From sequence record NC_052659.1: a DNA stretch of 64,000 bases; one strand, written 5' to 3'. Below, piece after piece: positions 15,573-58,018 of the stretch. How positions within the stretch are numbered: position 1 is the first letter of the stretch; every line of letters starts with the position of its first letter. Origin of the DNA: Escherichia phage nieznany. Made by a program: the position numbers and the translations under genes. The notes under the pieces were generated by a model. It saw only the letters and a list, made by a program, of their open reading frames with translations. It ran no database searches and had not been told where the DNA came from.

Positions 15573-15794
15573 ATGGGTGTTTTTGCAGGTATTGTTGCAG
15601 TGGTAAGCTTTTTTGTTATTGCTTTTATGCTTAGTTTGATTCCAGCTTGGTTACTGTTGCTGGCTTACAACTATGTTGCTGAAGTTATGGGTCATGCAGA
15701 TATCACTGTCCCAGTAACCTTCTGGACCGTGGTTTGTGTTTCGTTTATTCTGGCAGTATTACGAGGAATCTTTTCCTCTCATTCAACAAAATAA
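15573..15794 (+). CDS. small membrane protein (73 aa, two predicted TM helices)
   Basis: Hydrophobic composition; AAGAGGAG SD. Confidence 0.5.
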   Translation: MGVFAGIVAVVSFFVIAFMLSLIPAWLLLLAYNYVAEVMGHADITVPVTFWTVVCVSFILAVLRGIFSSHSTK

Positions 15795-38096: not shown

Positions 38097-38562
38097 GGTT
38101 TGTTTCAAGTGTGGGGTGTTAAAGCCCCTCACTGAATTTTACAAACATAAAGCTATGGCTGACGGTCACGTCAATAAATGCAAGGAATGTAATAAGAAAG
38201 ATGTTAAACAGAATCGTAAAGATAAATCTGAATATTACAAAGAGTATGATAAAAACAGAGATCAGACCCCAGAGCGCAAAGCTTTGAAAGAGGCTTACGC
38301 AAAAGGGAAAGGTAAAAATAAGGCCAATGAAGCTAAGAAACGTTACATCGAAAAGAATCCGAAAAAACGTTCTGCTCATATAGCTGTAGGTAACGCACTC
38401 CGAGATGGAAAGTTAGTAAAACAACCTTGCCAAGTGTGTGGGTCTGTTGATGTTCATGCTCATCATTGTGATTATGATAAACCGTTAGATGTTCTATGGC
38501 TGTGTCCTCTACACCATGAGGCTTGGCATCAAGAACATGGTGAAGGATTGAACGCTGAATAA
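38068..38562 (+). CDS. HNH endonuclease (free-standing homing-endonuclease type)
   Basis: CQVCGSVDVHAHHCDYDKPLDVLWLCPLHHEAWH is a canonical HNH/zinc-finger core; likely start ATG 38068 overlapping the 3' end of the SSB ORF. Confidence 0.7.
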   Translation: MVETSCIASKVCFKCGVLKPLTEFYKHKAMADGHVNKCKECNKKDVKQNRKDKSEYYKEYDKNRDQTPERKALKEAYAKGKGKNKANEAKKRYIEKNPKKRSAHIAVGNALRDGKLVKQPCQVCGSVDVHAHHCDYDKPLDVLWLCPLHHEAWHQEHGEGLNAE

Positions 38563-38569
38563 AAGAAAA

Positions 38570-38595
38570 GGGAACCTTTACGGGTTCCCTTTTTT
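38570..38595. terminator. bidirectional rho-independent terminator at the convergence point
   Basis: GGGAACC-TTTACG-GGTTCCC hairpin flanked by an A-tract upstream and TTTTTT downstream; sits between the last rightward gene and the last leftward gene. Confidence 0.65.
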
Positions 38596-38596
38596 A

Positions 38597-43400: not shown

Positions 43401-46400
43401 TTAGGTTGTTGGCACATCTACTACTGGCGTTGGGCGAATAACCGCAGTATTACCTACAGAAACATTACTGGAATCATTAGGTATGGTTTTAATTCTAACT
43501 CCAGCACTTGTAGGCGTTACAATTGGATCTGCAATGTCTATTTTAACTGGGTTAGTCCACGTATCATTATCTTGATAAGGTGCACGAGTAATAACTGTGT
43601 CCAAATCTGCTCCACCTACGCCAGCACCAGGAATACGGATACGTGTCCCTGCTGATAGAGGGTAATGATACAACCAAGAAGCATTTGTTGCTGTCCCGTT
43701 AGGAGTCAAGTTCTGTGTCAGGAAGGTATCTCCTGCCTGTGTAGCTCGAATACCGAAAGCTGGGATATCTGGAATATATGCCCCACTTGTTGTTACAAGG
43801 AAGAACGTATTATCCGCCTTGACTATCATATCACCTTTGTCAAACTCTTTCCCTGTTGGGAAATGCATTCCATCAATGTTTCGACTAGGATTAGGCTCTA
43901 AGTAATAAACTTTGCCCGTTGTCCCTACAATAGCTCCAATACCACCTGCGATATTGGTATACATATTAGCTTCAACATTACAGTTGACACGATGAATATC
44001 CGAGTAACGGCAACGGCTCCACTGTGGACGACCAGTAACCATCGTCTTGCCATCTGGGTAACAGTTTACGTTAACCATTTCAAGAACAGATTTTTCTCTA
44101 CGGAAGAATCCATCATAAAATGTCCCTGGACCAGATTCAGGTTGACCAACACAATCGAAGATATTACAGGTGATGTTAGACATTGAAAGCCAAGAAGCTA
44201 TACCGAACAACTGCAATGCAGCGCAACGAATATTTTCAAAGCTAACTCTGTTTTCATAACCTGGCCCAGCGGAAACTCCTGCAAAAACACGCCCAGTTTT
44301 GGTGTGAATGTTACGAACAGAATAGTTAAAGCATGGGTTTGAAGGTCTACCCTGTGCCGGAACTACCGGATTACCCTCTTCGTCCAGAACTGCGTTAGTT
44401 CCCCACTCCAAATAAATCATACGGATATTACTTGCAAGTGTGCTACCGTCTGTTTTAGGTTCTCCATAAACACCGTCAATCGTAAAATCTTTACTTCCAT
44501 ACATTACAACTGCGCCAGTTGCCAAACCTGTTCCAACAGATACGGTTTGATCTGGATCGCCATGAATGTTTTCGATAGAAATATTACGACCAACTTCTAC
44601 GTGGACAATCTGACGGCAACGTTTTGCAAAAACGTTACGAATTGTAATATTCTTGCAATATTGATCATCAGAGATTCCGTAACCATATGGTCCTTTACCA
44701 GCTACACCGATACCGATACCCCAGTTGGACAGAGGAATAGGAGCGTTAGTCCCATCGATATTAGACAGGTAAATATTCTCAATCACACAACCATCGTCAT
44801 AATGTTTATTGATGACGTTCAGTTCTATTGCATCACCTTGCATGTCCATGAAGGTAAGGTTACGGAAGACACCGCGTGTTACTGGCTCCCCTGTCCCTTG
44901 TTGAAGGATGCCATATAACCCGTTTTTAAAAGTACAATTATCAATTTCAAAAGTACCTGATATTGGGTTGCCTTGGAATACCAAGCTACCAACTTGACCT
45001 GCGCGAGGAGCACCGTCCCACAAACAATCGAACATGCGCACAGCACCACCCCAATACATAACACGAGAGTTACGGAAAGTTGTGCCTTCTACTGTAGCAT
45101 TCTGCACACGATAGTCGCGTTGACCACGGAACACACCCCCACGCAAAGTGATACCTTGAATATCAAAAGAGCTTGTCGTGAAAGTCATATCGCAACCGTA
45201 AGCATCGAGAATCTTACTTTTCGAAGCTTTTGCTGCTAACAGTGCCGCCTGGAAAGCTGCTTCTGGTGTGGTATAGGTGGTTGTATTGTTAGCAAATTCT
45301 GACAAGTAGACAACATCGAATAAATCATTGTATGTTCCACCGCGAGGGGTTAACAGTCCTTCTGTATTAGTTAGAACCCATGCGTTTGGACCTAATCCAC
45401 CGCTTGTCTCCAATGTGTCAGAGGCCAAAATACTTTTTGGTAAACTCCCCGCCCAACGATAACGACCAGCACCACGTCCAATCGTCTGATTTTTAGCTGT
45501 CAGAGTTACATTATTACCAAAGCTTGTAGGCAAATGAACAAACTGTCCACGTTCAACAGCCAGTGCAGAAAGATCTACAGATCCCCCAGAGTAAGTCATT
45601 ACTCCAGAAACAGACAGGGATGTTAAAGTTCCTGTAATGTTAGGAGGTAGTGTGTAGGAAGACTGTGCTACCGGATCATATAGGGCTTTAATACCTGTTA
45701 AAGACTGTCCTGCTGTAGCATAAGCTACCTCATCATCTAACAAACCATACTTACGAGCAATGGTTTGCAGCGGAACTTTATCCATGCTTTCTGTCAGTTC
45801 TTCAGTTTTTGTTTCTAAACTGACAAGACGGTTCTCTAAGTTAGGATCTGTATCTGCGGAAGCTACAATTTTACCAATGTAAGCAAAAAGCTTGTTTGGT
45901 AATCCTGTTGCAGGATCATGCCCCAAAGGTTCAGATAAAATGATTTTACTATCTTCTATGCGGAAAGCTTCTCCCAAAACCTGAATAACACCATTGATCG
46001 TAACAATAGCACTATCAAAGATGTAGGGTGGACTGATTACTGTTTCATAACCAGTTGCACCAGAATATACCCAAGGGGTGACTTCTGTTGCCAATTGTTC
46101 TGTCTTCAGTCCCCACAATACCCAGTTGTTATCTCCTACTGGAGTCCCTTGCATAGGGATTGGGTTAACCAATGTAGCGTTAGGAGCATAGTAATAACCG
46201 CTCAATACCCCATTCTGGAAATAACGAAGTTGGTTAAAAACTGTTTCGTTTGTGCCTTGCGCCCAATCTAATGGGCTTTTAAAGAAAAAGTTGTCAACAA
46301 GGGCTTTTCTCAGGGTTGGTATCAACCCTGATTCTGTTTCAATACTCTCTGTAGCACTTCCATTAATAACATCATGGAGTTGGTTAGATGAGAAAATAAC

Positions 46401-46454
46401 CAGGTCTACGCCCTGTTCGAGAGACGTTGCTGGATATGTTGGGAATGTTGCCAT
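43401..46454 (-). CDS. tailspike protein with right-handed beta-helix (pectate-lyase-like), putative polysaccharide depolymerase
   Basis: 1017 aa; central region with repeated N.T..N / I.N beta-helix rungs (NCTFKNGLYGILQQG, NITIRNVFAKRC, NISIENIHGD); distinct N-terminal anchoring domain. Confidence 0.5.
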   Translation of the reverse strand: MATFPTYPATSLEQGVDLVIFSSNQLHDVINGSATESIETESGLIPTLRKALVDNFFFKSPLDWAQGTNETVFNQLRYFQNGVLSGYYYAPNATLVNPIPMQGTPVGDNNWVLWGLKTEQLATEVTPWVYSGATGYETVISPPYIFDSAIVTINGVIQVLGEAFRIEDSKIILSEPLGHDPATGLPNKLFAYIGKIVASADTDPNLENRLVSLETKTEELTESMDKVPLQTIARKYGLLDDEVAYATAGQSLTGIKALYDPVAQSSYTLPPNITGTLTSLSVSGVMTYSGGSVDLSALAVERGQFVHLPTSFGNNVTLTAKNQTIGRGAGRYRWAGSLPKSILASDTLETSGGLGPNAWVLTNTEGLLTPRGGTYNDLFDVVYLSEFANNTTTYTTPEAAFQAALLAAKASKSKILDAYGCDMTFTTSSFDIQGITLRGGVFRGQRDYRVQNATVEGTTFRNSRVMYWGGAVRMFDCLWDGAPRAGQVGSLVFQGNPISGTFEIDNCTFKNGLYGILQQGTGEPVTRGVFRNLTFMDMQGDAIELNVINKHYDDGCVIENIYLSNIDGTNAPIPLSNWGIGIGVAGKGPYGYGISDDQYCKNITIRNVFAKRCRQIVHVEVGRNISIENIHGDPDQTVSVGTGLATGAVVMYGSKDFTIDGVYGEPKTDGSTLASNIRMIYLEWGTNAVLDEEGNPVVPAQGRPSNPCFNYSVRNIHTKTGRVFAGVSAGPGYENRVSFENIRCAALQLFGIASWLSMSNITCNIFDCVGQPESGPGTFYDGFFRREKSVLEMVNVNCYPDGKTMVTGRPQWSRCRYSDIHRVNCNVEANMYTNIAGGIGAIVGTTGKVYYLEPNPSRNIDGMHFPTGKEFDKGDMIVKADNTFFLVTTSGAYIPDIPAFGIRATQAGDTFLTQNLTPNGTATNASWLYHYPLSAGTRIRIPGAGVGGADLDTVITRAPYQDNDTWTNPVKIDIADPIVTPTSAGVRIKTIPNDSSNVSVGNTAVIRPTPVVDVPTT

Positions 46455-46457
46455 TAA

Positions 46458-46793
46458 TTACCCCTTATTCTGTGTACGTTTAACTATGTCATCTAGCATC
46501 ATTTGGATAGTCGCATTCTTGAGATCCATAATCTTTTCAATTTTTTGCTCAAGGGTGTTGTTATTTGCCATTAATGTAGAGTTAATTTGATTTAGCATCT
46601 GGGTAAGTTCGGCTTTAGTTGCGTAAGTTGATTCAACAAAGACCAACTTCTTCTCTAGCTCTCGACTTTTCTCCTCCATTTCCTCAAGATCAGAGCCGAA
46701 TTTATCCATTTTTTGTTTGAAAAAGAACCAGATGACTCCGATTAAAGGGATAATTGCATCCTTGGCAAGTCCCCATGCTTCTTGAAATTCCAT
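46458..46793 (-). CDS. hypothetical protein with N-terminal TM helix and coiled coil (111 aa)
   Basis: Hydrophobic IIPLIGVIWFFF then E/K-rich heptads. Confidence 0.4.
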   Translation of the reverse strand: MEFQEAWGLAKDAIIPLIGVIWFFFKQKMDKFGSDLEEMEEKSRELEKKLVFVESTYATKAELTQMLNQINSTLMANNNTLEQKIEKIMDLKNATIQMMLDDIVKRTQNKG

Positions 46794-48399: not shown

Positions 48400-49029
48400 T
48401 TAATCTATTTGCTTGAGAAGCGTACACATGCGTCCTGTTTCATCCCCAGTAGATTCCATATACAGGGAACCTAAACCACCAATACCATGAGGCGGTTTGG
48501 TAGCATAATAAGAACTAAAACCAAAAGCTGATCCTGCTTTTGCTCCAAGACGGTAGCTACTAATGATAGGGAAAACACTTAGCAACTGTTCTAAAGCTTG
48601 ATCAGATTGAAGACACAGGTTGTAGAAAAACACATCAAAGGTTTTATTCAAACCTACGTAAGTATTAAGCGTTTCACGCTCTGTTCCTGTGAAACGGGCG
48701 AAGATATCAATTATGTCACCACGAGTCCCCGATGAGGCTACGCGGTAAGCCCTGATTTTTAATATTGTTCTATACTCTTCATCATCAGAGCCATTACGTT
48801 CGATCCCCATTTCTTCTCCTAAGATATCTAGGTATTTGCCTGTGGCTGTGGAGATCAAGCGGTGTTTAGCAAGATAGATCATTGCCTGATCTATCTTTTG
48901 CTTTTCACTGGATACGATGTAGAGGAGCTTGACAATGTTAGGAGAAGATTTAAAATCTTCAATCAGAAGGTTTTTAACGTCTTCATTGATACTGGCCCAA
49001 GTTGTTACATGGTCAACACTCACTGCCAT
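48400..49029 (-). CDS. baseplate protein (gpI-like by position)
   Basis: 209 aa directly downstream of the J-like gene; context only. Confidence 0.35.
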   Translation of the reverse strand: MAVSVDHVTTWASINEDVKNLLIEDFKSSPNIVKLLYIVSSEKQKIDQAMIYLAKHRLISTATGKYLDILGEEMGIERNGSDDEEYRTILKIRAYRVASSGTRGDIIDIFARFTGTERETLNTYVGLNKTFDVFFYNLCLQSDQALEQLLSVFPIISSYRLGAKAGSAFGFSSYYATKPPHGIGGLGSLYMESTGDETGRMCTLLKQID

Positions 49030-49031
49030 TT

Positions 49032-50519
49032 TTACACTCCATACTCGTAAGAAATGTTATCAAGGTCAAAAGAAGGGACAACATTATAAGCAGGAACTAT
49101 ATTATTCTCTGTATATTTACTGTCATCCTCAGTATTAAGTTTAACATAAACACGAAGAGAAGTCAAGCGTCCAAAAGCAAGTGCTGCATAAATAACACCT
49201 TTGATTTGATCGTTCGTTACTGAAGAACCTAATTCAAAGTAAGCTTGCAGGTTTTGTAAAGCTTCTACGATGTTTTGTTTTTCTGTTCCACTTAAAGTTG
49301 TTCCGTTGACAGTTTGATAAACAAGTTTTACAGAATACATAGCAGAAGCACCAGGGGAGAAGCGAATAATTTCTTGTCCTCCATCTTCTGTTGTAACTGT
49401 TATGTTAGTTGTTCCGTGTGTCAAAGTGTTGATTGGTTTGGTTTTATAGATAACATTTGCAATTTCTTCAGCACTCCCTCCATAAACTATAGTCTGGAAA
49501 GTCATAGCTGGAGCATGTTCTTGATCATGTAACGTAGGGTTATCATAAATCTTCACCTTAGTAACACCATCTGTAAGTAACAGAGCTTTCACAATAGCTG
49601 CTCGTGTCCCTGCGTTAGCTTCGTCAACGTTGTCATTGAAACGAGAGCGGAATTCTGCGTCTGTCTCAACATCTCGACCAGGGGAAAATGAATAGAAGTT
49701 ACCACTATCAAGATAACCTGTAAAGGTAGAAGATATCCCTGTAATAGACTCCACACCAACAGGATTGTATCCTTTCTCTGCTGCAACTACCGGAATCTCA
49801 CTCCACTTGGTTCCAACCGGAACACTAGCATAAAATTTAATAGGAGTTACCAGCCCCACTGGAGTATCACTGGTTAAAGAAGTAAAACCAATTGATAAGT
49901 TACCTGAATCAGAAAATACAAGACTACGATCAGCTTCTGTTAAATTCGCCTTGATAAAAGTTTCAAGATCGGTTATAAATGTAGAAGAACCAGGTGCAAG
50001 TGTTTTACTGTTTAGTCCTCCATCCACCGCACTTTGTGCATAAAAAGTAATATTTGGAACACCTGTAGCAGTTGCATTAGCACGAGAGATTTGATAAGCT
50101 GCAATCTTAGCATTCAACATAGTTGGTGTGCTAACATAGTAGTTCATATCACTATCAGAGTTGAAGTAAATATCCGTGCCTAACTCATAAGTCCAAGCTG
50201 CTTTGTTATTACTCTTAACATAGGCATAACCTGTACTTGCTGCTGCCCCTGCTCGATAGAAACCGCGTTTAGAAAAGATTTCGTCAAGATAAATACCTTC
50301 TGCACCATCCAGTGTTTGAGTATTATAAACACCTTGCATACCTTCCCACAATGTGTAATCTGTGTACGCAATTATTCTAAACAGTTGTCCGATCACAGTA
50401 TCTTCCGAAGTGGCTGCATCTGCACCAAATGTGTTTTTTACTGCTGTCATATAATTGTTTAGAACATCGTCAAAAGTCGGGATTACAAATCCCGCATCTG
50501 TCAAACCATATTCGTCCAT
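49032..50519 (-). CDS. baseplate J-like protein
   Basis: N-terminal region (..TVIGQLFRIIAYTDYTLWEGMQ..DGAEGIYLDEIFSKRGFYRAGAAASTGYAYV) fits the baseplate J family pattern; 495 aa. Confidence 0.5.
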   Translation of the reverse strand: MDEYGLTDAGFVIPTFDDVLNNYMTAVKNTFGADAATSEDTVIGQLFRIIAYTDYTLWEGMQGVYNTQTLDGAEGIYLDEIFSKRGFYRAGAAASTGYAYVKSNNKAAWTYELGTDIYFNSDSDMNYYVSTPTMLNAKIAAYQISRANATATGVPNITFYAQSAVDGGLNSKTLAPGSSTFITDLETFIKANLTEADRSLVFSDSGNLSIGFTSLTSDTPVGLVTPIKFYASVPVGTKWSEIPVVAAEKGYNPVGVESITGISSTFTGYLDSGNFYSFSPGRDVETDAEFRSRFNDNVDEANAGTRAAIVKALLLTDGVTKVKIYDNPTLHDQEHAPAMTFQTIVYGGSAEEIANVIYKTKPINTLTHGTTNITVTTEDGGQEIIRFSPGASAMYSVKLVYQTVNGTTLSGTEKQNIVEALQNLQAYFELGSSVTNDQIKGVIYAALAFGRLTSLRVYVKLNTEDDSKYTENNIVPAYNVVPSFDLDNISYEYGV

Positions 50520-50761
50520 TAGTCATCCTCTTTGGTAGATTGTGATCTGCCCCAACGTAAATCAATAAGATTTTTCATGAGGCGAGAAGGGGTTATCATG
50601 AAAACAAAAGCCCAACCCATCCATTCAGGAATTTCTTTTTCTATTCCTAAAAAGATAAACATGCCTGTCATAACCGACATGCCTACAGCGTTCCAGACTT
50701 TAGTAGAACTGACTTTATTATCAGGATATGTACAGAACATACCTATTAAAAATTTTCTCAT
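50519..50761 (-). CDS. small membrane protein (80 aa, two TM helices, charged C-terminus)
   Basis: Hydrophobicity pattern; coupled ORF. Confidence 0.4.
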   Translation of the reverse strand: MRKFLIGMFCTYPDNKVSSTKVWNAVGMSVMTGMFIFLGIEKEIPEWMGWAFVFMITPSRLMKNLIDLRWGRSQSTKEDD

Positions 50762-51066
50762 AGTGCGTTCTCATTACTTTTTAAATCACGAGATACAACT
50801 AATTCCCCAAGGTCTACAGAACCCGCTGAATGCACAAATACAGCAGCACTAAGACTAATGGCAGTAGTACCTGGGGCAATATCAGCAGGTAGGGAATACG
50901 CCCTTTGCGTCTCCTTATCATAGATAACCTTATACCCACCCAAATCCACACCAACTGAGAAGTAAACAACCTCAGATTGTTTAACTCCAAAGTGACGGGC
51001 TACTGCTTGTTTATTGGTTAAGATTCCGGTTGAACCTTTACCACCTTGTGAGAACATTTCGTTCAT
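50758..51066 (-). CDS. hypothetical protein (102 aa)
   Basis: Coupled ORF. Confidence 0.45.
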   Translation of the reverse strand: MNEMFSQGGKGSTGILTNKQAVARHFGVKQSEVVYFSVGVDLGGYKVIYDKETQRAYSLPADIAPGTTAISLSAAVFVHSAGSVDLGELVVSRDLKSNENAL

Positions 51067-51084
51067 AACGACCTCTTTGTTTTT

Positions 51085-51110
51085 CTAAAAAACCCCTCCG
51101 AAGAGGGGTG
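51085..51110 (-). terminator. rho-independent terminator (minus strand)
   Basis: ACCCCTC-TTCG-GAGGGGT hairpin followed by UUUUUUAG on the minus-strand transcript. Confidence 0.55.
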
Positions 51111-51139
51111 CTTATTAATACTAACAATAGTCGATGTTT

Positions 51140-51421
51140 TCAACAGTCAATACTAGTTGCTGCGTAAGGAGGCGCTAATTTTGTGGGAACGTGACGCTGT
51201 TCGAAAGCAACGCACGCAGCGGCATACAGTGCATCTATTGCAGGCAACGGAAACATCGACAGTGCACAGGCGTCACGAAACTCGTTCAGATCAGGCTTAT
51301 TCCCATAGACTTTAACGGCAATATTTGGTTTAAGGTAAAAACCAGCACTCCACCCATCACCCCGTACTTCAAGAATGGCAACGCCAACCGCTGTAAATTT
51401 TTCAAATTTCATCTTAAACAT
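51140..51421 (-). CDS. hypothetical protein (93 aa)
   Basis: ORF upstream of the internal terminator. Confidence 0.45.
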   Translation of the reverse strand: MFKMKFEKFTAVGVAILEVRGDGWSAGFYLKPNIAVKVYGNKPDLNEFRDACALSMFPLPAIDALYAAACVAFEQRHVPTKLAPPYAATSIDC

Positions 51422-51572
51422 TCTCCATAGATTCGTTGTTATGAGCAGAATTTTCTCGGTCTAACTCTGCCTGTAATGCATTCATCGCTACAGTAAAGGC
51501 AGGAACTTCCTGCCCAGTTAAATTAACTCTCAGCATAAACTGCATGATATTTTGAATAGTTTGCTTATCCAT
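51414..51572 (-). CDS. small hypothetical protein (52 aa)
   Basis: Minus-strand ATG with AGGA SD; stop overlaps the next start (ATGTTTAA); below ORF-track cut-off. Confidence 0.3.
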   Translation of the reverse strand: MDKQTIQNIMQFMLRVNLTGQEVPAFTVAMNALQAELDRENSAHNNESMENV

Positions 51573-51612
51573 GATTATTCCTATTAAGTTGGGCCAATAA
51601 GACCGTGTGTGA

Positions 51613-52971
51613 TTAGAGCATCAGATAATTTTTTACATATCTGGCCAATTCTACCAGCGTCATTGTTTCGGTATTTTTGACCGTGCCATCCGCTGTTCCA
51701 CCTAGCTGGAAAATTCCAGTTTGTCTGACTGAAAGAACTTTAGTGCTGTTTATAGATATGTTCATATTTCTGAAGTTAAATGCACCTGTCGCATCTTCGT
51801 AACCAATCCACTTCGTTACTCCGGCGACCGGACCCCAGTAAATCCTATGGTCTATATCTAAGTTTATTGCATTACTTTCTTGAAATCTCGCACCAAGAGT
51901 GTTCAGACCATATGTGAAGTTGATTCCAGTTCCGTCAGCCCGTGGACCAAGTTTTATTCCTCCATAACGATGAAGGTTAGACACTGACCCTTCGATTTTC
52001 AGCTGTTGAGTATCTTCCAAATAAGCATTTTTCCAATCTCCGGAAGGGAGCACACCACCCCTTCTAAGCCTCATGCCTATCCACCAGCCAGACTCTCCTA
52101 CTGGACGGTTTGAGCCATCTCCAACGTCAATTCCAATACCACAAGCTGAACCACCGTCCGCAGTAGTAACGATAAGACCTCGATAAGGCCCCTCCCCTGT
52201 GGGAAGGTTTTCCGGATGAGGCTGAGATGAGAATGAATTCACCAGATTTAATTCACATCCGACTAACTGAGAAGAGCGCACTCCAGAGCCATCATTACCA
52301 TTCCCTGCCTGACCCCAAAGACCCCAAACCCTCCCGTTTCGTCCTATAGCTTTACCAGAACCATGTACGCCTATAGCGTCAACTGATTTTCCAGAGGTTA
52401 ATACATCACCAGCCGAAGATCTTACATAGCCCGAGACACCAATCCCAAAGGCTGACGCCTCCGGTTCAAGGGTTATCGTTCCCTGCATAGCAACATCAAA
52501 CCATTTTGTGCCCCCCTCTTCCCTTTTCATCTTGGAGGTTTTTTCTGCCCAGATTAATGGGTAAGGGTTTTCGGCTCCGGCTCCGGGTAAACCGCGCTTT
52601 AATTTGAACCCACCAGAATAGTTCCTAAACGAAGGATATATATTAAACGTTGCATCAACAGTATTGGGCCAATACCCTTCTGGGACAAGGTAGGTAAGGC
52701 CCGTGTTGTTCGCGGCAGTAATAGCTACCGTATTGGATTCGGAATCCCCTTTGGCTCCGCCAGCGAACCCACCCCACGTAATTGGTTTTGGAATATCACC
52801 AATAAGACCAGCCCCACCTGAATCTTTCAACTGGGTGGCTAAAACCACCCCAGTGTCAGTAAGAAAGTTGGAAACTGTGCTTTTAACAGTCTTATCAGGT
52901 TGATCTAAAACCAGGTAATCTGAACCATTAACTTTTGATGTTTCGGGTAAATTAGTAATTGTAGTTGACAT
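51613..52971 (-). CDS. tail/baseplate structural protein (452 aa)
   Basis: G/S/T-rich beta composition; within structural operon. Confidence 0.4.
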   Translation of the reverse strand: MSTTITNLPETSKVNGSDYLVLDQPDKTVKSTVSNFLTDTGVVLATQLKDSGGAGLIGDIPKPITWGGFAGGAKGDSESNTVAITAANNTGLTYLVPEGYWPNTVDATFNIYPSFRNYSGGFKLKRGLPGAGAENPYPLIWAEKTSKMKREEGGTKWFDVAMQGTITLEPEASAFGIGVSGYVRSSAGDVLTSGKSVDAIGVHGSGKAIGRNGRVWGLWGQAGNGNDGSGVRSSQLVGCELNLVNSFSSQPHPENLPTGEGPYRGLIVTTADGGSACGIGIDVGDGSNRPVGESGWWIGMRLRRGGVLPSGDWKNAYLEDTQQLKIEGSVSNLHRYGGIKLGPRADGTGINFTYGLNTLGARFQESNAINLDIDHRIYWGPVAGVTKWIGYEDATGAFNFRNMNISINSTKVLSVRQTGIFQLGGTADGTVKNTETMTLVELARYVKNYLML

Positions 52972-52979
52972 TTTTACTC

Positions 52980-55133
52980 CTATATATAAAATTTTTGTGT
53001 TGTTACTAAATCTTCTCCAGATTTAGTGGCTAATGTAATTCCACTTATGGTGGCAATCTCAACATTTACCTGTTTAAGAGTGATATCCTGTAAATAAACG
53101 TTCAAAGGCACGTTACCCATATAGAAAACTTGGGATTGAGAATTAACTACTGTGATAGAATCATGCATTATTTGAGGATAGGCCCATATATATTGTGTAA
53201 GTCCGTCAAACTTATTGGCGTTCAACACTATGTTACCTATAATCATCTTCCAAAGATATGTGCGGTAGTTTGATTTAGGATCAAAGCCATACAAAGGTGC
53301 AAGAGTAGCATCTGGAACAAAACCTGAAAGGTAGTGAATATCAGAATATTCAAAACCTAATTTTTCATGTGGTATAGTAATTGCATCAAATGCTTTCATC
53401 ATCTTACCTTCCAGAAGCCAGTCATAACACTCTGAACAGTAAAAATCAAAAGCTTCAGGAATGTAGTAATCAGACGGGAAGTTAACTTTCTCCATCAAAC
53501 CGTTGCCGATAATTGATGGCAAGAACGGAAGCAATGTTACCTTGGCTCCTGGGTAAGTTGCTCTAGTATCTGTTGCAAACTTTGTAACTCTTAATCCTAG
53601 TTTACGAGACAAAAATGCATAGTATTCGTCAAACGGCGTTCCTGTTTTATAATTATCTATTGTTCCTGCATCTTGTGCAAATAAACCTGTTTCTGTGTTG
53701 AATGCCAGTTTGGTAGTGTAATCATATATGCAAGGCATTTTACTTGCTGTATTATACCACCACCAAGGCTCACCAATTTGAATGACAACTGGAATATTAT
53801 TAGCTTGCGAAATAGATGCTATTTTATTAATAACATTTTGCAAATATTCCATACCTTCGTCAATAGTTGGAGACAACACATAACTAGGAGGTTTATACCC
53901 TGTTGCTGCAAGAGCATCGTTCCAATCATGCTGAACCCATTCTACAGGACAAACTGTGCTCATCAATTCAAAACTTAAAGAGTTCATTATTGTGTAGCCC
54001 TTCTCGTTTGCTATAGAATGGAAGCTGTTAAGCCAAGCTTCTGTAGCCGGATTCAGGAAAACAGATTTATTTAAAGCCCAAGATGTTCCATTCCATGAGA
54101 ACTCATAATAGTGAGACATTCCGTTATAATGGTTAATCATCCCACGATAACCTAGTGCATATGTATTATAAATAACTCTCTCTGGAGTCAGGTTATACAT
54201 ATCATCATAAGATGTGCACATGCGAATATCATGTTCAGGCTGGACAAGGTTGCTGACTTTCATCATACTGTAACCAGAGGTAGGTTCAAGAAGAGTGAAA
54301 GTAAACCAAGCCTCTTGACTGTCAATAGGTACAACCTCTTCTATTTCTTCGTACCTTGCTGTAATCAAAGAGAAGAAAATATTATCTACAGCACTCATAT
54401 CCAAAGGAATATCATTATTAGGGCCAGAAAAGATATTACCAAAATCTAACTTGATTGTAGCTGTTTTACCATCTTCTGAAATATCTAAAGCGTAGAATCC
54501 TAAACTGACATAATGAACACTTTTATCCAGGAGAGTTACAGTCAAAGTCGGCACCAAAGGTTCTTCTTTAAAACCTGGCATGTTTTGACTAATTTCCATT
54601 TTAAACCAAAGTTTCTCTGAACTTAAATCTGTGTGGGGTAAATACCCAACACCTTTATGGTCATATTTGTCAACTGTGCTCCAGATAACCCCTGCCAAAC
54701 CTGCTGTTGTTCTGTTTACAAATCTTGCAGTAAAAGAGTCTCCATGAGATACAATAGAACAACTTTCCGTTGCTTGAGAATCTATTGTCCAATACATAGG
54801 AGAGAACATTTTAACGTCTTTTGTAGTCCAAGTTATTGGAGTAGTATTTTCTTGGATAGTAGTTATAATACAATTGATGGTTGTTTCAACCATCATATTA
54901 TTTTGACTAATCCCTGAAACTTGGAGGGAGAAGTTAAGATCTATTGAGTTCTTTGGTCGTTCAAATACTTCAACCACAATAGTAGCAGAATCAGCATCAT
55001 CAGGGAACACAAGTGTTCCCGATTTTGCAATATAATCTCTACCAGCGACTGCTGTTCCGTCAACAGTCGTGTAGTTAAATGAACTCGCATTTACTCTCTT
55101 GTCTCGCGTGACAGTAAATATAGCTTGTTTCAT
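52980..55133 (-). CDS. large tail-associated protein (717 aa), possible enzymatic domain
   Basis: Aromatic-rich globular C-terminal half (IGEPWWWYNT); no motif assignable by eye. Confidence 0.4.
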   Translation of the reverse strand: MKQAIFTVTRDKRVNASSFNYTTVDGTAVAGRDYIAKSGTLVFPDDADSATIVVEVFERPKNSIDLNFSLQVSGISQNNMMVETTINCIITTIQENTTPITWTTKDVKMFSPMYWTIDSQATESCSIVSHGDSFTARFVNRTTAGLAGVIWSTVDKYDHKGVGYLPHTDLSSEKLWFKMEISQNMPGFKEEPLVPTLTVTLLDKSVHYVSLGFYALDISEDGKTATIKLDFGNIFSGPNNDIPLDMSAVDNIFFSLITARYEEIEEVVPIDSQEAWFTFTLLEPTSGYSMMKVSNLVQPEHDIRMCTSYDDMYNLTPERVIYNTYALGYRGMINHYNGMSHYYEFSWNGTSWALNKSVFLNPATEAWLNSFHSIANEKGYTIMNSLSFELMSTVCPVEWVQHDWNDALAATGYKPPSYVLSPTIDEGMEYLQNVINKIASISQANNIPVVIQIGEPWWWYNTASKMPCIYDYTTKLAFNTETGLFAQDAGTIDNYKTGTPFDEYYAFLSRKLGLRVTKFATDTRATYPGAKVTLLPFLPSIIGNGLMEKVNFPSDYYIPEAFDFYCSECYDWLLEGKMMKAFDAITIPHEKLGFEYSDIHYLSGFVPDATLAPLYGFDPKSNYRTYLWKMIIGNIVLNANKFDGLTQYIWAYPQIMHDSITVVNSQSQVFYMGNVPLNVYLQDITLKQVNVEIATISGITLATKSGEDLVTTQKFYI

Positions 55134-55141
55134 TTTACCCC

Positions 55142-58018
55142 TTACTCGGTAACGTCCACACTAATGTTTGCCATTGTCAAAACAGTAAGTGCAGGAATAT
55201 TGCTCGAATCCAAAACAGGTAATGCATTTTGGGGATTAAGTTTTTTGTATAAAGCATACAACCCAAAACCACGTAACAACTCTCCAGCGTGGAAGCCAAA
55301 GAAGACTCCGTTATCACTGTCTGGTCTAGGAGCAGCACTCCAACAACCATTCATAACGTGATTAGGACCAAGAACAATATAGTTTTCCTGAATAAGTTCA
55401 AAACAGCGGTCTGCTACTATTTTAATGTTAGGAATTTCTGAATCATATCCAGCCATCCCCATTATAGCACATCCCGCCATAAAGAGCGCAGACATGTGAC
55501 TTGTAAAGTCATCTACAGGCGCAGCCACTTCTCCGTTGGGATAAAATATTGTTGGTGTTCTTCCTTCGTTGTTATCTTGGAACCACTTCAGGTAGTTGAT
55601 CCAGTTTTTACAAACTGTTAAAAGTTTTTCAGGAACTTCGGCTCCTCGTCGCTTTAGTTCGTATACCGTATGACACGCACAGAAGAATGCTCGTGCTTCA
55701 TAACCATCCCAAGCTTTATCGTTCCAATGATACATTGTGAACTCATTTTTGTTTCCATATTTATGAGCATCCCAACGATCCCAAACATAAGCTTGTGCCA
55801 TTGGCCCAGGCATTACAGGGGCAAACTTATTATAAAACCACATTTGTGAATCATATAAAAAGTCTATACTGTTGTTCATACGAACCCAGTCAATATCTCT
55901 CCCTTTAAAACAATATAAGGATGGGTATTGATAACCTGGGTAAGGAATACCACGCCAACCGTCATATAATGCTGTGTTAGGATCACTAATATTGGAAAAT
56001 GGAATGATTCCTGGAGTATAATTCAAACTGTCAAGTTTGTAGTCCAGTATTGTACAATCTCCAAGTTTTGCTGTATAAGGATTTTCAGATGAAACTGTAA
56101 CCCTGAAATACATTGTGTAATCATCGCCAGCGGCTGAAGAATACAAAGATGGGATATCGTTAACGCAATAAAAGTCGATTGCCCCTGTCAAGCCATTTGC
56201 AGGTTCAGAATCCAATGCAATATTGATCTGATCAACAGCAGTCAGGTTTATTGACGAAGGTTTTGCCTCTGTGTCTTCGTGATTAGGTTGCCAAGTACTT
56301 AATTTGAAATCGGCAGGACTTAAAGCTTTAGTAACCCATGCAGAATTTGTTTTTTCTAACATGGCCCACCATCTCCAACCTGCGGAATCCGTAATAGTGA
56401 TGTTAAAATCATCTGCGTATGAACGATACGTAATAGATTTTAAATTGGCTGTTTTAGTTGGTGTTAACCAAAACCCAACAGTAAAACCACCATCTGAATC
56501 CATATTAGCAGAAACTATCTGATCACTATTTGTCCCAGCAATACCAGTTGCATATTTATATTGTATCACAGTATTGCTTCCCCAGTCAACAATAATTCTG
56601 GGTTCAGCAATAATATATACACCACCTCCAGGAGGTTCGGTGCGCATAAAACTAGATAAAGGTATATCCATCTTAGTCATATTAGCTGCACCAAGAGGTA
56701 AGCCACAACGATATGTCACTGTGTCTGTTTCACTCTTAGTCTTGCTTAATTCTAACTCTGGACGGAAAAGAACACCTTCCCCTGCATCATCTACACCTTG
56801 AAACTCAATACGCAGTTTTGAATTCTGATCCACTCTGAACCAAACTGCCTGTTGTTCTAGAGTTGTTTGTGCTGAAACATCTTGGCGAATTACTGTGTAT
56901 CCTAATTCGTCACGAGAATATTTAGGTATTGCTGTAGATGGGTATGAGTAATCATACGAGATACCATCTGTAAAAGGAATTATTGCTGTCGTAGATCTAC
57001 GGAAGAATTTATCAAACATATCGATGTTTGAGTAGTCTTGACACAACAATAAAGAAGATTGCCAGCAAAGCCAGTATTTTCTCTCTCCTGTGATCTGATA
57101 CATCAAGTAGTTTGCATCACACCACCACGTTTCAGCATCGGAAGCATTATCTTGATAGCCTAACTCTACCGGAACGTTCACAGGACGGTTATGCCACATC
57201 TCATTACGCTTAAGCAGATATCCACCGTGTTCTACAGGATTGCATGTAGCGTAGTTGAATTTATAGTCCCCGTTCACAGAAGCATTTTTAAGTTGCACTG
57301 TTCCATATTCTGCGAAGCTGTGACCTGTAGATAAAATGTTACCATCCCAATCAACTTTACGTCCTAGACGATCTATAATCCATTCAACGTCCCACTGATC
57401 TCCATATTCTTTCCAGTTGGTTGAACCATCTGGGTTAGTTGCATACACTGTTGCGTTAACAGAGTTCCAACCAAGATTACCATTGAAAGCAAACCAAGCT
57501 TTATCTAAGTATTCTCCCCAGTGTGGCGCACCTTTAGGAATAATAGTCCTTCCGTTAATCCAAGTCATCATGCTACCTTTGAACCCACCGTGCGTAGGAT
57601 ACCCATCATCTGTGAGAGGGTAATGTGCTAAACGTGGTTCTTTACCATTGATGATCCAGTTGGGACGATATTTAGCCGGAGGATCAGGAATAGGTTGGCC
57701 CCCGAAGAAGTGATCTATATAGGCTTGCCAATACTTCTCGGCAGATTCAAGATATTTTTTATCCCCTGTAGCCAAATATGCATAAGCAAAACCAGTGATA
57801 AGCACAGATTGACCTTCGGTAGTAGCGTCACCGTTTGGTTGCCCTTCCTGCGCTGTCCAGTTAATAAAGTGTCTGTTGTTCGCCAATACGTTTTGTGGGT
57901 TGATAATGTAATGCTGAACCGTAGGATCTATGGTAAGCCCAGTATTTCTTTCCAAAAACTGAACCAACCCTTCAATCAACTGAAACGTGTTGTCAATATT
58001 GTGCTTAACTCTTGACAT
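55142..58018 (-). CDS. large Trp-rich tail-associated protein (958 aa), possible carbohydrate-active domain
   Basis: High Trp/Tyr content typical of glycan-binding or glycan-degrading folds; context in the tail module. Confidence 0.35.
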   Translation of the reverse strand: MSRVKHNIDNTFQLIEGLVQFLERNTGLTIDPTVQHYIINPQNVLANNRHFINWTAQEGQPNGDATTEGQSVLITGFAYAYLATGDKKYLESAEKYWQAYIDHFFGGQPIPDPPAKYRPNWIINGKEPRLAHYPLTDDGYPTHGGFKGSMMTWINGRTIIPKGAPHWGEYLDKAWFAFNGNLGWNSVNATVYATNPDGSTNWKEYGDQWDVEWIIDRLGRKVDWDGNILSTGHSFAEYGTVQLKNASVNGDYKFNYATCNPVEHGGYLLKRNEMWHNRPVNVPVELGYQDNASDAETWWCDANYLMYQITGERKYWLCWQSSLLLCQDYSNIDMFDKFFRRSTTAIIPFTDGISYDYSYPSTAIPKYSRDELGYTVIRQDVSAQTTLEQQAVWFRVDQNSKLRIEFQGVDDAGEGVLFRPELELSKTKSETDTVTYRCGLPLGAANMTKMDIPLSSFMRTEPPGGGVYIIAEPRIIVDWGSNTVIQYKYATGIAGTNSDQIVSANMDSDGGFTVGFWLTPTKTANLKSITYRSYADDFNITITDSAGWRWWAMLEKTNSAWVTKALSPADFKLSTWQPNHEDTEAKPSSINLTAVDQINIALDSEPANGLTGAIDFYCVNDIPSLYSSAAGDDYTMYFRVTVSSENPYTAKLGDCTILDYKLDSLNYTPGIIPFSNISDPNTALYDGWRGIPYPGYQYPSLYCFKGRDIDWVRMNNSIDFLYDSQMWFYNKFAPVMPGPMAQAYVWDRWDAHKYGNKNEFTMYHWNDKAWDGYEARAFFCACHTVYELKRRGAEVPEKLLTVCKNWINYLKWFQDNNEGRTPTIFYPNGEVAAPVDDFTSHMSALFMAGCAIMGMAGYDSEIPNIKIVADRCFELIQENYIVLGPNHVMNGCWSAAPRPDSDNGVFFGFHAGELLRGFGLYALYKKLNPQNALPVLDSSNIPALTVLTMANISVDVTE

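What the first reader, a model, noticed from the sequence alone, without database searches (positions are those of the whole stretch)
50519..51572. Small membrane and small soluble proteins between two structural sub-operons, separated by an internal terminator
An 80-aa two-TM protein with a charged C-terminus (50519-50761), a 102-aa protein, a 93-aa protein and a 52-aa protein lie between the large tail proteins and the J-like gene, with a terminator at 51085-51110. The two-TM protein has holin-like topology, so part of the lysis machinery may be embedded in the tail module, though this is speculative.
Basis: inference. Interest (0 to 1): 0.2.

Follow-up and report, generated by a model that had tools for sequence, protein, structure and literature searches.

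The report
Tailspike cassette junction with relic stub
This stretch of a phi92-like E. coli phage is the downstream end of a swappable tailspike gene cassette: two small genes that travel with the spike, a conserved RNA hairpin, the leftover first domain of a lost second tailspike, and a small conserved membrane protein that may or may not be the phage's unidentified holin. It is ordinary phage mosaicism, but a clear example.

Summary
Four small minus-strand ORFs and a canonical hairpin terminator lie between the tail-fibre genes and the baseplate J gene of a Phapecoctavirus, which is about 100% identical to Escherichia phage tuntematon in this region.

They are not one functional group.
- The 52-aa and 93-aa genes are a mobile pair under purifying selection. 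They follow one tailspike receptor-binding-domain family in P22-like and lambda-like prophages, a Kagunavirus, G7C-like podophages and this myophage. They are probably spike-specific helpers.
- The hairpin, Shine-Dalgarno sequence and 102-aa ORF form one portable junction, the same as upstream of Kuttervirus tsp1 and G7C gp63.1.
- The 102-aa ORF is only the TD1 anchor domain, 93% identical to CBA120 TSP1 residues 1-94, with no receptor-binding part. An 826-nt block (52-aa, 93-aa, hairpin, TD1) is 86% identical to a G7C-like contig where TD1 heads a complete tailspike. The stub is absent from phi92 and phAPEC8, so it is a dispensable relic.
- The 80-aa protein (phi92 gp144 / rV5 gp29 family, more than 350 phages) has one clear membrane helix and one short one. 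It matches no known holin and lies far from the endolysin and spanins. One GenBank record already labels it "membrane protein-holin" from topology alone.

The holin idea is plausible but unproven. Interest is low to moderate.

The parts
51613..52971 (-). Variable tailspike (452 aa). This is context: the cassette whose downstream end is the finding. Residues 1 to about 54 are the conserved Phapecoctavirus anchor. The rest is a receptor-binding domain of a family also found on P22-like, lambda-like, Kagunavirus and G7C-like spikes.
   Evidence: Only residues 1-57 are conserved in other Stephanstirmvirinae. It is 75% identical to an Enterobacter prophage fibre and 27-31% identical to P22-like, Kagunavirus and G7C-like spikes. 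Left homology with relatives ends at about codon 54. There is no PDB sequence match.
51414..51572 (-). 52-aa soluble helical protein, the first gene of a mobile accessory pair that follows this receptor-binding-domain family.
   Evidence: Homologues lie immediately downstream of the related spike in E. coli P22-like prophages, Enterobacter and E. coli lambda-like prophages, Kagunavirus LM02P1, Aeromonas phage AsC4_1 and G7C-like contigs. dN/dS is 0.12-0.26. No Pfam, PHROG or PDB hit.
51140..51412 (-). 90-aa protein (93 aa if started at 51421), the second gene of the accessory pair. It is a small alpha/beta protein with no recognisable fold relatives.
   Evidence: Homologues follow the 52-aa gene in P22-like prophages, AsC4_1 and G7C-like contigs. 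dN/dS is 0.24-0.33. The AlphaFold2 model has pLDDT 75, with three strands and two helices. No Foldseek match in PDB or BFVD.
51086..51109 (-). Intrinsic-terminator-type hairpin (CCCCTC-TTCG-GAGGGG, then T6). It is part of a portable hairpin, Shine-Dalgarno and TD1 junction.
   Evidence: Terminator scan. The same element lies upstream of Kuttervirus BSP101 tsp1 and Gamaleyavirus pSb-1 gp20. Covariation across 19 phages is 97% paired, with 5 of 6 pairs compensatory.
51067..51085 (-). Conserved spacer and Shine-Dalgarno sequence (TAGAAAAACAAAGAGGTCGTT) of TD1-type tailspike genes.
   Evidence: Nearly invariant in the 19-sequence alignment A11 and.
50758..51066 (-). 102-aa ORF: a stand-alone TD1 (N-terminal anchor) domain of a gp63.1/TSP1-type tailspike plus an 8-residue tail. 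It is a truncated stub with no TD2 or receptor-binding domain.
   Evidence: Residues 1-94 match CBA120 TSP1 (4oj5, E 7e-49), G7C gp63.1 (4qnl) and 9d84, and the N-termini of PHROG tailspike families. It is collinear at 86% nucleotide identity with a G7C-like contig in which TD1 continues into a 560-aa spike; homology stops at codon 94. It is absent from phi92 and phAPEC8 and internally deleted in ECGD1.
50519..50761 (-). 80-aa conserved small membrane protein (phrog_1322; phi92 gp144, rV5 gp29, PVP-SE1 gp42 family). It is a candidate holin, unproven.
   Evidence: PHROG E 2e-27. 370 phage records and at least 145 protein clusters contain it. Invariant residues are S18 K21 W23 W47 R69 G71. dN/dS is 0-0.09. 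AlphaFold2 helices are at 2-9, 19-41, 46-56 and 59-70. It is not in the phi92 cryo-EM model and has no MS or TMD flag in rV5. BME3's record labels it "membrane protein-holin".
45921..46091 (-). T4 gp10-like branching domain (aa 122-178) inside the 1017-aa colanidase tailspike. It is a possible former docking site for a TD1-headed spike.
   Evidence: Weak but consistent matches to branching/adaptor domains: 7y22_e E 3.7e-4, 9k4a, 23sh_r, CBA120 TSP2 6w4q residues 18-71. TD1-TD2 follows at aa 226-372.

Best explanation
The region is the downstream end of a horizontally exchanged tailspike cassette and its junction with the conserved baseplate operon. The phage is a phi92-like myovirus, a Phapecoctavirus whose tail module is essentially identical to that of phage tuntematon.

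Read in the direction of transcription (minus strand):

1. **52-aa and 90/93-aa genes.** These are translationally coupled accessory genes that travel with one family of tailspike receptor-binding domain, whatever virion the spike is mounted on. I infer that they help that spike fold, trimerise or mature.
2. **Hairpin and Shine-Dalgarno sequence.** A GC-rich hairpin with a U-tract and a fixed Shine-Dalgarno sequence form the standard inter-cistronic junction of TD1-type tailspike arrays. I infer that the hairpin acts as a leaky terminator or 3'-end stabiliser for the spike mRNA. The essential baseplate genes downstream have no room for a promoter of their own, so transcription must read through.
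3. **102-aa ORF.** This is the 5' stub (TD1 anchor domain only) of a second, gp63.1/TSP1-type tailspike that once followed. In donors such as G7C-like podophages the same block continues into a full spike. Here it ends after domain 1 and is fused by an ATGA overlap to the next gene. It is probably still translated. I infer that this mainly delivers ribosomes to the 80-aa gene, and that the stub also serves as a homology arm for further cassette swaps. It is dispensable as a virion part.
4. **80-aa protein.** This is a conserved late small membrane protein of the rV5/phi92 supergroup. Its function is unknown. Holin is the leading single guess, at about one in three.
For: **Identity and context.**
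- The window is 100% identical to tuntematon over 49000-53000.
- The gene order matches RefSeq.

**Cassette boundaries.**
- Relatives share the first 54 or so spike codons.
- Homology then resumes at the hairpin (Ro121c4YLVW, PD06-like) or at codon 18 of the stub (anhysbys).
- In phAPEC8 and phi92 it resumes only at the 80-aa gene.

**Accessory pair.**
- The spike, 52-aa gene and 93-aa gene appear in the same order in P22-like prophages. There an opposite-strand GT2 glycosyltransferase and an integrase follow.
- They also appear in this order in lambda-like prophages, AsC4_1 and G7C-like contigs. LM02P1 has only the 52-aa gene.
- Selection is purifying, with dN/dS 0.12-0.33.

**TD1 stub.**
- It is 93% identical to CBA120 TSP1 residues 1-94, with crystal-structure homologues.
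- TD1 is the domain that docks on XD3/gp10-like domains (PMC11414711).
- An 826-nt block (52-aa, 93-aa, hairpin, Shine-Dalgarno, TD1) is 86% identical to contig L063, where TD1 heads a 560-aa spike. Homology ends at codon 94.
- The stub is intact in at most 27 of about 132 Stephanstirmvirinae records.
- It is absent from phi92 and phAPEC8 and reduced to 49 aa by an internal deletion in ECGD1.
- Among near-identical copies it shows 3-4 non-synonymous against 1 synonymous change. The flanking 80-aa and J genes show 0 non-synonymous against 3 and 23 synonymous.

**Hairpin.**
- The same element precedes Kuttervirus tsp1 and pSb-1 gp20.
- It shows covariation.

**80-aa protein.**
- Its position inside the tail-fibre module is conserved, but its neighbours differ between subfamilies.
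Against: - **The stub ORF stays open.** Every copy seen is open, the ECGD1 deletion is in frame, and the stub occurs in both genera, including BME3.
- **One comparison suggests constraint.** The ECML-183-2 copy differs by 23 synonymous and 7 non-synonymous changes (dN/dS 0.07), which could mean the protein itself is under constraint. I attribute this to patchy allele conversion from functional TD1 genes. The differences cluster in the 5' two-thirds, and the neighbouring 80-aa gene shows a similar patch. That explanation is an inference.
- **The relaxed-selection signal is weak.** The dN/dS near 1 rests on very few substitutions.
- **A docking partner may still exist.** The colanidase carries a possible gp10-like docking domain, so the stub could still bind the virion.
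- **The helper role is indirect.** For the 52/93-aa pair it rests only on gene linkage. There is no homology to any chaperone and no structural match.
- **No expression data.** None exist for the hairpin or for any of the four genes.
Confidence: 0.7

Rival explanations
1. The 80-aa protein is the phage's holin, so part of the lysis system is embedded in the tail module, as gene t follows the tail-fibre genes in T4. It would accumulate in the inner membrane late in infection and trigger, releasing the soluble lysozyme.
For: - It is small, with a hydrophobic helix of TM length, a second hydrophobic segment and a charged C-terminus.
- It sits in the late operon and is conserved across the whole rV5/phi92 supergroup, as the spanins and endolysin are.
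- No holin is annotated in tuntematon, and no TM protein lies next to the lysozyme or spanins.
- BME3's authors list an 81-residue protein with class II holin topology, and the GenBank record labels the homologue "membrane protein-holin".
- The T4 precedent comes from my own knowledge.
Against: - It has no similarity to any holin family in Pfam or PHROGs. PHROG files it as a membrane protein/moron.
- The second hydrophobic segment is only about 11-15 residues. In most homologues it reads YAPTVVAP, which is barely hydrophobic.
- The rV5 authors' TMHMM and Phobius runs found no TMD in gp29, and they proposed gp129 instead.
- Its strictly conserved polar and aromatic residues (S18 K21 W23 W47 R69 G71) look more like a specific binding interface than a generic holin.
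- Other small two-TM ORFs exist, including one also annotated as holin in BME3.
Confidence: 0.33
2. The 102-aa TD1-only protein is a functional virion component. As a trimeric cap, it would occupy the gp10-like docking domain of the colanidase spike or another branch point, stabilising the branch or blocking mis-assembly.
For: - It has an intact ORF with a strong Shine-Dalgarno sequence in at least 27 genomes of two genera.
- dN/dS is low against ECML-183-2.
- The colanidase has a gp10-like domain followed by TD1-TD2, a TSP4/gp66-like layout.
- TD1 is known to dock on such domains.
- Another phage, pSb-1, also carries a TD1-only ORF of 119 aa.
Against: - It is absent from phi92, phAPEC8 and most Stephanstirmvirinae, which keep the colanidase.
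- In ECGD1 it is reduced to a 49-aa fragment lacking the domain core.
- Non-synonymous changes are in excess among close copies.
- The cryo-EM paper on phi92, a phage that lacks this ORF, reports no comparable small baseplate or fibre protein.
Confidence: 0.17
3. The 52-aa and 93-aa proteins are not spike helpers. They would be morons carried along with the spike, for example superinfection-exclusion, receptor-modification or anti-defence factors that act in the host.
For: - In prophages the pair lies between the tailspike and a lysogenic-conversion-like region. That region holds an opposite-strand GT2 glycosyltransferase, two more small ORFs and an integrase.
- There is no similarity to any chaperone.
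- Between tuntematon and ECML-183-2 the pair has diverged much more (dS about 0.3) than the spike itself (dS 0.02). The pair can therefore be exchanged independently.
Against: - The pair is kept, co-oriented and translationally coupled behind the spike in strictly lytic phages that lack the glycosyltransferase: tuntematon, ECML-183-2, G7C-like contigs, and LM02P1 for the 52-aa gene.
- Neither protein has a signal peptide or a convincing TM segment, so they are unlikely to act on a surface receptor.
- Selection is purifying in the lytic context.
Confidence: 0.3
4. The hairpin is an efficient terminator that splits the tail genes into two independent transcription units, with a separate late promoter driving the 102-aa, 80-aa and baseplate genes.
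For: - It has the canonical form: a 7-bp GC-rich stem, a TTCG loop and T6.
- It is the only strong terminator-like site on the coding strand in 43-59 kb.
- phi92 has a different hairpin at the equivalent place after its spike gene.
Against: - Only about 20 nt, all occupied by the conserved Shine-Dalgarno spacer, separate the hairpin from the next start codon.
- No sigma-70-like site lies between them.
- In relatives the U-tract is often broken (CTTACTT, TCTTTAC), although the same essential genes follow.
- In Kuttervirus and G7C-like phages the same element sits between consecutive tailspike genes that must all be expressed.
Confidence: 0.2

Closest known systems
TD1 (N-terminal tandem-repeat domain 1) of Ackermannviridae TSP1/TSP3 and G7C gp63.1 (PDB 4oj5, 5w6f, 4qnl, 9d84)
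   Same: Residues 1-94 of the 102-aa ORF are 80-93% identical to these domains. The upstream hairpin and Shine-Dalgarno sequence are also shared. In those phages TD1 docks the spike onto a gp10-like XD3 domain of another spike.
   Different: Here the domain stands alone. There is no TD2, no beta-helix and no receptor-binding part. The ORF ends 8 codons after TD1 and overlaps the next gene. It is missing from many sister phages.
Modular tailspike exchange in tsp arrays (Kuttervirus/Agtrevirus tsp1-4; G7C gp63.1/gp66)
   Same: There are conserved 5' modules and variable 3' receptor-binding modules, with recombination at the module borders. An engineered Kuttervirus S117 recombinant that acquired a synthetic tsp5 gene lost tsp3 and retained only a truncated tsp4 (PMC11414711). 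The 826-nt collinear block shared with a G7C-like contig shows the same traffic.
   Different: The exchange crosses family borders, between an N4-like podovirus type and a phi92-like myovirus. It leaves a stub of the neighbouring gene and carries two small accessory genes with it.
phi92 gp144 / rV5 gp29 / PVP-SE1 gp42 (phrog_1322 'membrane protein')
   Same: The 80-aa protein is a clear member: E 2e-27 and 81% identity to phi92 gp144.
   Different: Nothing differs. The family itself has no demonstrated function.
Class II holins (e.g. phage 21 S68), and T4 holin gene t lying after the tail-fibre genes
   Same: Small size, hydrophobic helices, a charged C-terminus and late expression. The location among tail-fibre genes has the T4 precedent (own knowledge).
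   Different: There is no sequence relationship and only one helix of membrane-spanning length. It is not adjacent to the endolysin or spanins, and no functional data exist.
Tail-fibre assembly chaperones encoded just downstream of the fibre gene (lambda Tfa, Mu U, P2 G, T4 gp38/gp57A)
   Same: The 52/93-aa pair lies immediately downstream of the spike gene, is co-transcribed with it, and is co-inherited with the receptor-binding domain across unrelated virion types.
   Different: There is no homology to Caudo_TAP or any chaperone family. The proteins are much smaller, and tailspikes usually need no separate chaperone. The role is an inference.

Membership tests
TD1-headed tailspikes (CBA120 TSP1 / G7C gp63.1 type) | N-terminal TD1 domain homologous to the solved structures | tested here: met
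   phmmer E 7e-49 to 4oj5 residues 1-95. Also matches 4qnl, 9d84, 6nw9 and 5w6f.
TD1-headed tailspikes (CBA120 TSP1 / G7C gp63.1 type) | TD2 and a C-terminal receptor-binding or enzymatic domain following TD1 | tested here: not met
   The ORF stops at residue 102. Homology to full-length spikes ends at residue 94. The next gene is the 80-aa membrane protein.
TD1-headed tailspikes (CBA120 TSP1 / G7C gp63.1 type) | A partner protein with a gp10-like (XD3) docking domain in the same genome | tested here: inconclusive
   Colanidase aa 122-178 gives weak hits to branching domains (7y22_e E 3.7e-4; 6w4q XD2 E 0.06). Binding was not tested.
Holins (class II) | Two transmembrane helices with N-in/C-in topology | tested here: inconclusive
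   There is one hydrophobic helix at residues 19-41 (KD19 1.65). The second segment, residues 44-58, is short and forms an 11-residue helix in AlphaFold2. No TMD was called in rV5 gp29. DeepTMHMM reportedly gave class II topology for the BME3 homologue.
Holins (class II) | Sequence membership of a described holin family | tested here: not met
   No Pfam hit at E up to 10. The only PHROG match is phrog_1322, 'membrane protein'.
Holins (class II) | Genomic linkage to endolysin or spanin genes | tested here: not met
   The spanins lie upstream of terL and the lysozyme lies in the early/middle region, each tens of kb away.
Holins (class II) | Lethal membrane permeabilisation and release of endolysin | not testable with these tools
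   This needs expression and complementation experiments.
Intrinsic (rho-independent) terminators | GC-rich stem-loop followed by a U-tract on the transcribed strand | tested here: met
   A 7-bp stem, a TTCG loop and T6 at 51109-51086 on the minus strand.
Intrinsic (rho-independent) terminators | Structure conserved by compensatory change in relatives | tested here: met
   97.4% of cells paired, 5 of 6 pairs with changes on both sides, and 0 of 500 shuffles reaching this.
Intrinsic (rho-independent) terminators | Measured termination in vivo | not testable with these tools
   No transcriptome data are available.
Tail-fibre/tailspike assembly chaperones | Homology to a known chaperone family (Caudo_TAP, gp38, gp57A) | tested here: not met
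   No Pfam, PHROG or PDB hits for the 52-aa and 93-aa proteins. No fold match.
Tail-fibre/tailspike assembly chaperones | Encoded directly downstream of, and co-inherited with, the receptor-binding domain | tested here: met
   The arrangement is the same in six unrelated phage or prophage backgrounds.
phrog_1322 / phi92 gp144 family | Full-length profile match and conserved motif | tested here: met
   E 1.8e-27 over residues 1-80. Invariant residues S18 K21 W23 W47 R69 G71 are present.

The most novel reading that the evidence does not exclude
The unit of hairpin, Shine-Dalgarno sequence and TD1 may be a universal "landing pad" that lets phi92-like myoviruses capture tailspike cassettes, together with their private helper genes, from N4-like podoviruses and Ackermannviridae. 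On this reading the TD1 stub is kept for three reasons. It supplies the downstream homology arm. It drives translation of the 80-aa gene. It may also cap the gp10-like branch site on the colanidase. In parallel, the 52/93-aa pair would be a new class of tailspike-specific maturation factors shared by podo-, sipho- and myoviruses.
Probability: 0.3. Interest if true: 0.5.

Novelty: new member of a known kind. Interest (0 to 1): 0.3.

Why it matters
Host range in phi92-like "Swiss-army-knife" phages is set by swappable spikes. Three results bear on engineering or predicting it.
- **Cassette limits.** The cassette runs from spike codon 54 or so, through two accessory genes and a hairpin, to a TD1 stub. 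This tells engineers which pieces to move together when retargeting these therapeutic phages.
- **Donor types.** G7C-like podophages and Ackermannviridae emerge as likely donors.
- **Accessory genes.** If the 52/93-aa pair is needed for this spike family to fold, leaving it out would explain failed transplants.

Separately, the holin of the whole rV5/phi92 supergroup (hundreds of phages) has not been identified experimentally. The 80-aa protein is a concrete candidate that is cheap to test.

Tried and rejected
- **Family and structure searches on the 52-aa and 93-aa proteins.** Pfam, PHROG and PDB sequence searches found nothing. An AlphaFold2 model of the 93-aa protein searched with Foldseek against PDB and BFVD gave no match below E 0.09.
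- **DUF2644.** Precomputed tags on some 80-aa homologues were re-scanned. The best E was 0.04, below threshold, so the lead was dropped.
- **Lipoprotein reading of the 80-aa N-terminus (MRKFLIGMFC).** Rejected, because there is no canonical lipobox and the hydrophobic region is too short (sequence inspection).
- **gpW/gp25-like role for the 80-aa gene, suggested by its position before J.** Considered but not established. No Pfam hit supports it. In Vequintavirinae the gene sits between fibre genes, not before J.
- **Holin next to the spanins or lysozyme.** None of gp164-168 or gp235 has a TM segment apart from the spanins themselves.
- **vB_EcoM_01 as a truncated stub.** This turned out to be an assembly gap of Ns and was discarded.
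- **The low dN/dS of the stub against ECML-183-2.** At first this looked like proof of function. The alignment shows patchy allele replacement, so it was down-weighted.
- **A second 52/93-like pair after TSP-B of the G7C-like contigs.** They are not homologous.
- **Papers not held.** The phi92 (2012) and PVP-SE1 (2011) proteomics papers could not be read. Virion MS status of gp144 and gp42 could therefore not be checked.
- **Genome-wide TM scan.** It was run on a composite of the window and tuntematon record pieces, so it is only qualitative.

Full report
**What the window is.** The stretch 49000-53000 is 100% identical to Escherichia phage tuntematon (Phapecoctavirus, Stephanstirmvirinae, the phi92/phAPEC8 group). 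The RefSeq annotation gives the same genes. Outside the tail module the window is only 91-98% identical to that record and has indels, so it comes from a mosaic relative.

All genes in the region are on the minus strand. In the order of transcription they are:

| Gene | Window coordinates |
|---|---|
| 958-aa tail protein | 55142-58018 |
| 717-aa Calx-beta / non-contractile-tail-sheath-like protein | 52980-55133 |
| 452-aa tailspike | 51613-52971 |
| 52-aa ORF | 51414-51572 |
| 90/93-aa ORF | 51140-51412 or 51421 |
| hairpin | 51109-51086 |
| 102-aa ORF | 50758-51066 |
| 80-aa ORF | 50519-50761 |
| Baseplate_J | 49032-50519 |

A gpI-like baseplate protein, a short fibre, its chaperone, a 111-aa membrane protein and the colanidase follow downstream.

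**Check of the observation.**
- The genes are tightly packed, with ATGA and TAATG overlaps.
- The terminator is a textbook one on the coding strand.
- The "two-TM" description of the 80-aa protein is only half supported. Residues 19-41 form a hydrophobic helix of membrane length. The second segment is short. The rV5 authors' predictors called no TMD in the homologue.

**The 102-aa ORF is a tailspike stub.**
- Residues 1-94 match the N-terminus of CBA120 TSP1 (4oj5, E 7e-49, about 93% identity), G7C gp63.1 (4qnl) and other solved spikes. They also match the first 95 or so positions of many PHROG tailspike families.
- In Ackermannviridae nomenclature this is TD1, the domain that docks TSP1 and TSP3 onto the gp10-like XD3 domain of TSP4 and TSP2 (PMC11414711).
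- Nothing follows it here. Eight more codons lead to a stop that overlaps the start of the 80-aa gene.
- In two G7C-like (Gamaleyavirus-type) contigs the order is spike A, 52-aa gene, 90-aa gene, hairpin, full-length TD1-headed spike B. In one of them an 826-nt block from the end of spike A to codon 94 of TD1 is 86% identical to the window. Homology stops exactly where the stub ends.
- The stub is therefore the 5' end of a neighbouring tailspike gene that came with, or was left beside, the cassette.

**The stub is dispensable.**
- Relatives keep the first 54 or so codons of the variable spike. Homology then resumes at the hairpin (Ro121c4YLVW, a PD06-like genome) or at codon 18 of the stub (anhysbys, whose 5' end is a TSP3-like allele). 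In phAPEC8 and phi92, where the stub is absent, homology resumes only at the 80-aa gene.
- ECGD1 keeps a 49-aa in-frame remnant that lacks residues 10-62.
- At most 27 records cover the 80-aa gene, stub and hairpin together. About 132 Stephanstirmvirinae records carry the 80-aa gene.
- Among nearly identical copies the stub shows 3-4 non-synonymous against 1 synonymous change. The flanking 80-aa and J genes show none against 3 and 23.
- The ECML-183-2 copy looks constrained (dN/dS 0.07). However, its differences lie in a patch covering the 5' two-thirds of the ORF, and a second patch lies in the 5' part of the 80-aa gene. This is the signature of allele replacement rather than slow divergence.
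- The ORF is open in every copy, and the ECGD1 deletion is in frame. I read this as selection for translational coupling into the 80-aa gene, which has only a weak Shine-Dalgarno sequence of its own when the stub is present. In phages without the stub, the 80-aa gene has its own Shine-Dalgarno sequence and a 7-8 residue N-terminal extension. This reading is an inference.

**A possible former partner.** The 1017-aa colanidase (phi92 gp150 homologue) has a TSP4/gp66-like layout: an anchor, a weak gp10-like branching domain (aa 122-178), TD1-TD2 (aa 226-372), then the catalytic part. A TD1-headed spike could once have been mounted there. Whether the stub still binds is untested.

**The hairpin is part of the same portable unit.**
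- The motif is CCCCTC-TTCG-GAGGGG, a T-rich run, TAGAAAAACAAAGAGG and then ATGAACGAAATG. It recurs upstream of Kuttervirus tsp1 and Gamaleyavirus gp20.
- It also recurs upstream of TD1-type spikes in many IMG/VR phages, with at least six different stem sequences.
- On a 19-sequence alignment 97% of cells pair. Five of six pairs show changes on both sides, and no shuffle reaches this.
- The essential baseplate genes start about 20 nt after the hairpin, with no promoter-like site between, and relatives often have a broken U-tract. It therefore most likely acts as a leaky terminator or 3'-end stabiliser rather than a hard operon boundary.

**The 52-aa and 90/93-aa genes are a mobile pair tied to one spike type.**
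- Among deposited phages both occur only in tuntematon, ECML-183-2 and Aeromonas phage AsC4_1. The 52-aa gene also occurs in Kagunavirus LM02P1, each time directly after a related tail protein.
- In the large protein collection they occur in E. coli and Enterobacter prophages. One context is a P22-like spike with a Head_binding domain. The other is a lambda-like fibre after gpJ that is 75% identical to the tuntematon spike from residue 40 or so.
- In both prophage contexts the pair is followed by an opposite-strand GT2 glycosyltransferase and then further small ORFs. An integrase follows in the P22-like loci.
- The spikes share one receptor-binding-domain family behind quite different N-terminal adaptors.
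- Both small genes are under purifying selection (dN/dS 0.12-0.33). They have no family, PDB or fold match.
- Strictly lytic phages keep them without the glycosyltransferase. This favours a role in making the spike over a lysogenic-conversion role, but it is inference from linkage.

**The 80-aa protein.**
- It belongs to phrog_1322 (phi92 gp144, rV5 gp29, PVP-SE1 gp42). It is present in 370 phage records of Stephanstirmvirinae, Vequintavirinae, Mydovirus, Certrevirus, Plateaulakevirus and others.
- It always lies within the tail-fibre module, but next to different genes.
- It is strongly conserved (dN/dS up to 0.09) and has six invariant residues.
- It is not among the proteins modelled in phi92 virions and is not flagged by MS in rV5.
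- The phage's spanins lie upstream of terL and its lysozyme among early/middle genes, neither with a membrane-protein neighbour. No holin is annotated.
- The BME3 paper mentions an 81-residue protein with class II holin topology, and its GenBank record calls the homologue "membrane protein-holin".
- Against it: there is no holin-family similarity. The second helix is weak. There are rival candidates, including the 73-aa two-TM ORF that BME3 also labels holin.
- I put the holin reading at about one in three.

**Verdict.** The feature is real, but it is a composite. It consists of the tail end of a horizontally exchanged tailspike cassette, a relic of a second spike with its portable junction, and a conserved membrane protein of unknown role. 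This is a clear example of known phage modularity rather than a new kind of system. The accessory pair and the holin question are the parts worth an experiment.

Noticed in passing
window 1-40400 versus 41200-64000: The window is not tuntematon throughout. The right 23 kb (tail module) has a single mismatch to the GenBank record, at 51470 in the 52-aa gene. The left 40 kb is only 91-98% identical, with several stretches that do not align (for example 10590-11368, 33243-34217, 38048-39521). The source is a mosaic relative that shares tuntematon's tail module.
   Followed up: partly
window 46458-46793 (-): A 111-aa protein annotated 'lipoprotein' (rV5 gp31 homologue) is really an N-terminal TM helix plus a long coiled coil. 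It has a weak PHROG hit to Rz-like spanins (E 1e-3). It is a second small membrane protein inside the tail-fibre module and could work with the 80-aa protein, for example as a holin/antiholin pair.
   Followed up: no
window 43401-46454 (-): The colanidase tailspike has a TSP4/gp66-like layout. A gp10-like branching domain lies at aa 122-178. TD1-TD2 lies at aa 226-372, ahead of the phi92 gp150-like catalytic part. The next fibre gene (674 aa; tuntematon record NC_052660.1 62936-64960, just below window 43400) begins with a TD2-like segment.
   Followed up: partly
window 15573-15794 (+): A 73-aa ORF has two strongly hydrophobic helices (phi92 gp184 homologue). It sits among phosphatase and TerC genes and is annotated 'holin' in phage BME3's GenBank record. 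It is a rival holin candidate, conserved only within Stephanstirmvirinae and a few Klebsiella and Citrobacter phages.
   Followed up: partly
L020 6001-7541 (Shigella phage pSb-1): This Gamaleyavirus also has a TD1-only short ORF (gp20, 119 aa), followed by a separate 344-aa ORF (gp19). It looks like a split or truncated gp63.1-type spike. Its TD1 sequence clusters next to the Phapecoctavirus stubs.
   Followed up: no
L063 5003-5069 versus window about 52754-52820: A 67-nt stretch at the start of the tuntematon spike's receptor-binding part (codons 51-73 or so, GGAGLIGDIPKPITW) is 97% identical to a stretch after TD2 in spike B of the G7C-like contig. It looks like a conserved linker that could serve as the upstream recombination site of the cassette.
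   Followed up: no
L013-L016, L017, L065-L067 (E. coli and Enterobacter prophages): Downstream of the spike, 52-aa and 93-aa genes, the prophages carry an opposite-strand 393-aa GT2 glycosyltransferase and a conserved 79-aa plus 105/110-aa gene pair. An integrase follows in the P22-like loci (L013-L015). This is probably a receptor-modifying lysogenic-conversion module linked to this spike type.
   Followed up: no
tuntematon record NC_052660.1 47240-47761 (gp109): A SleB-like cell-wall hydrolase annotated 'endolysin' in RefSeq. The homologous ORF in my composite scan begins with a hydrophobic, signal-peptide-like N-terminus. It is a second, possibly secreted, lysin besides the T4-type lysozyme, which bears on whether a canonical holin is needed.
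   Followed up: no
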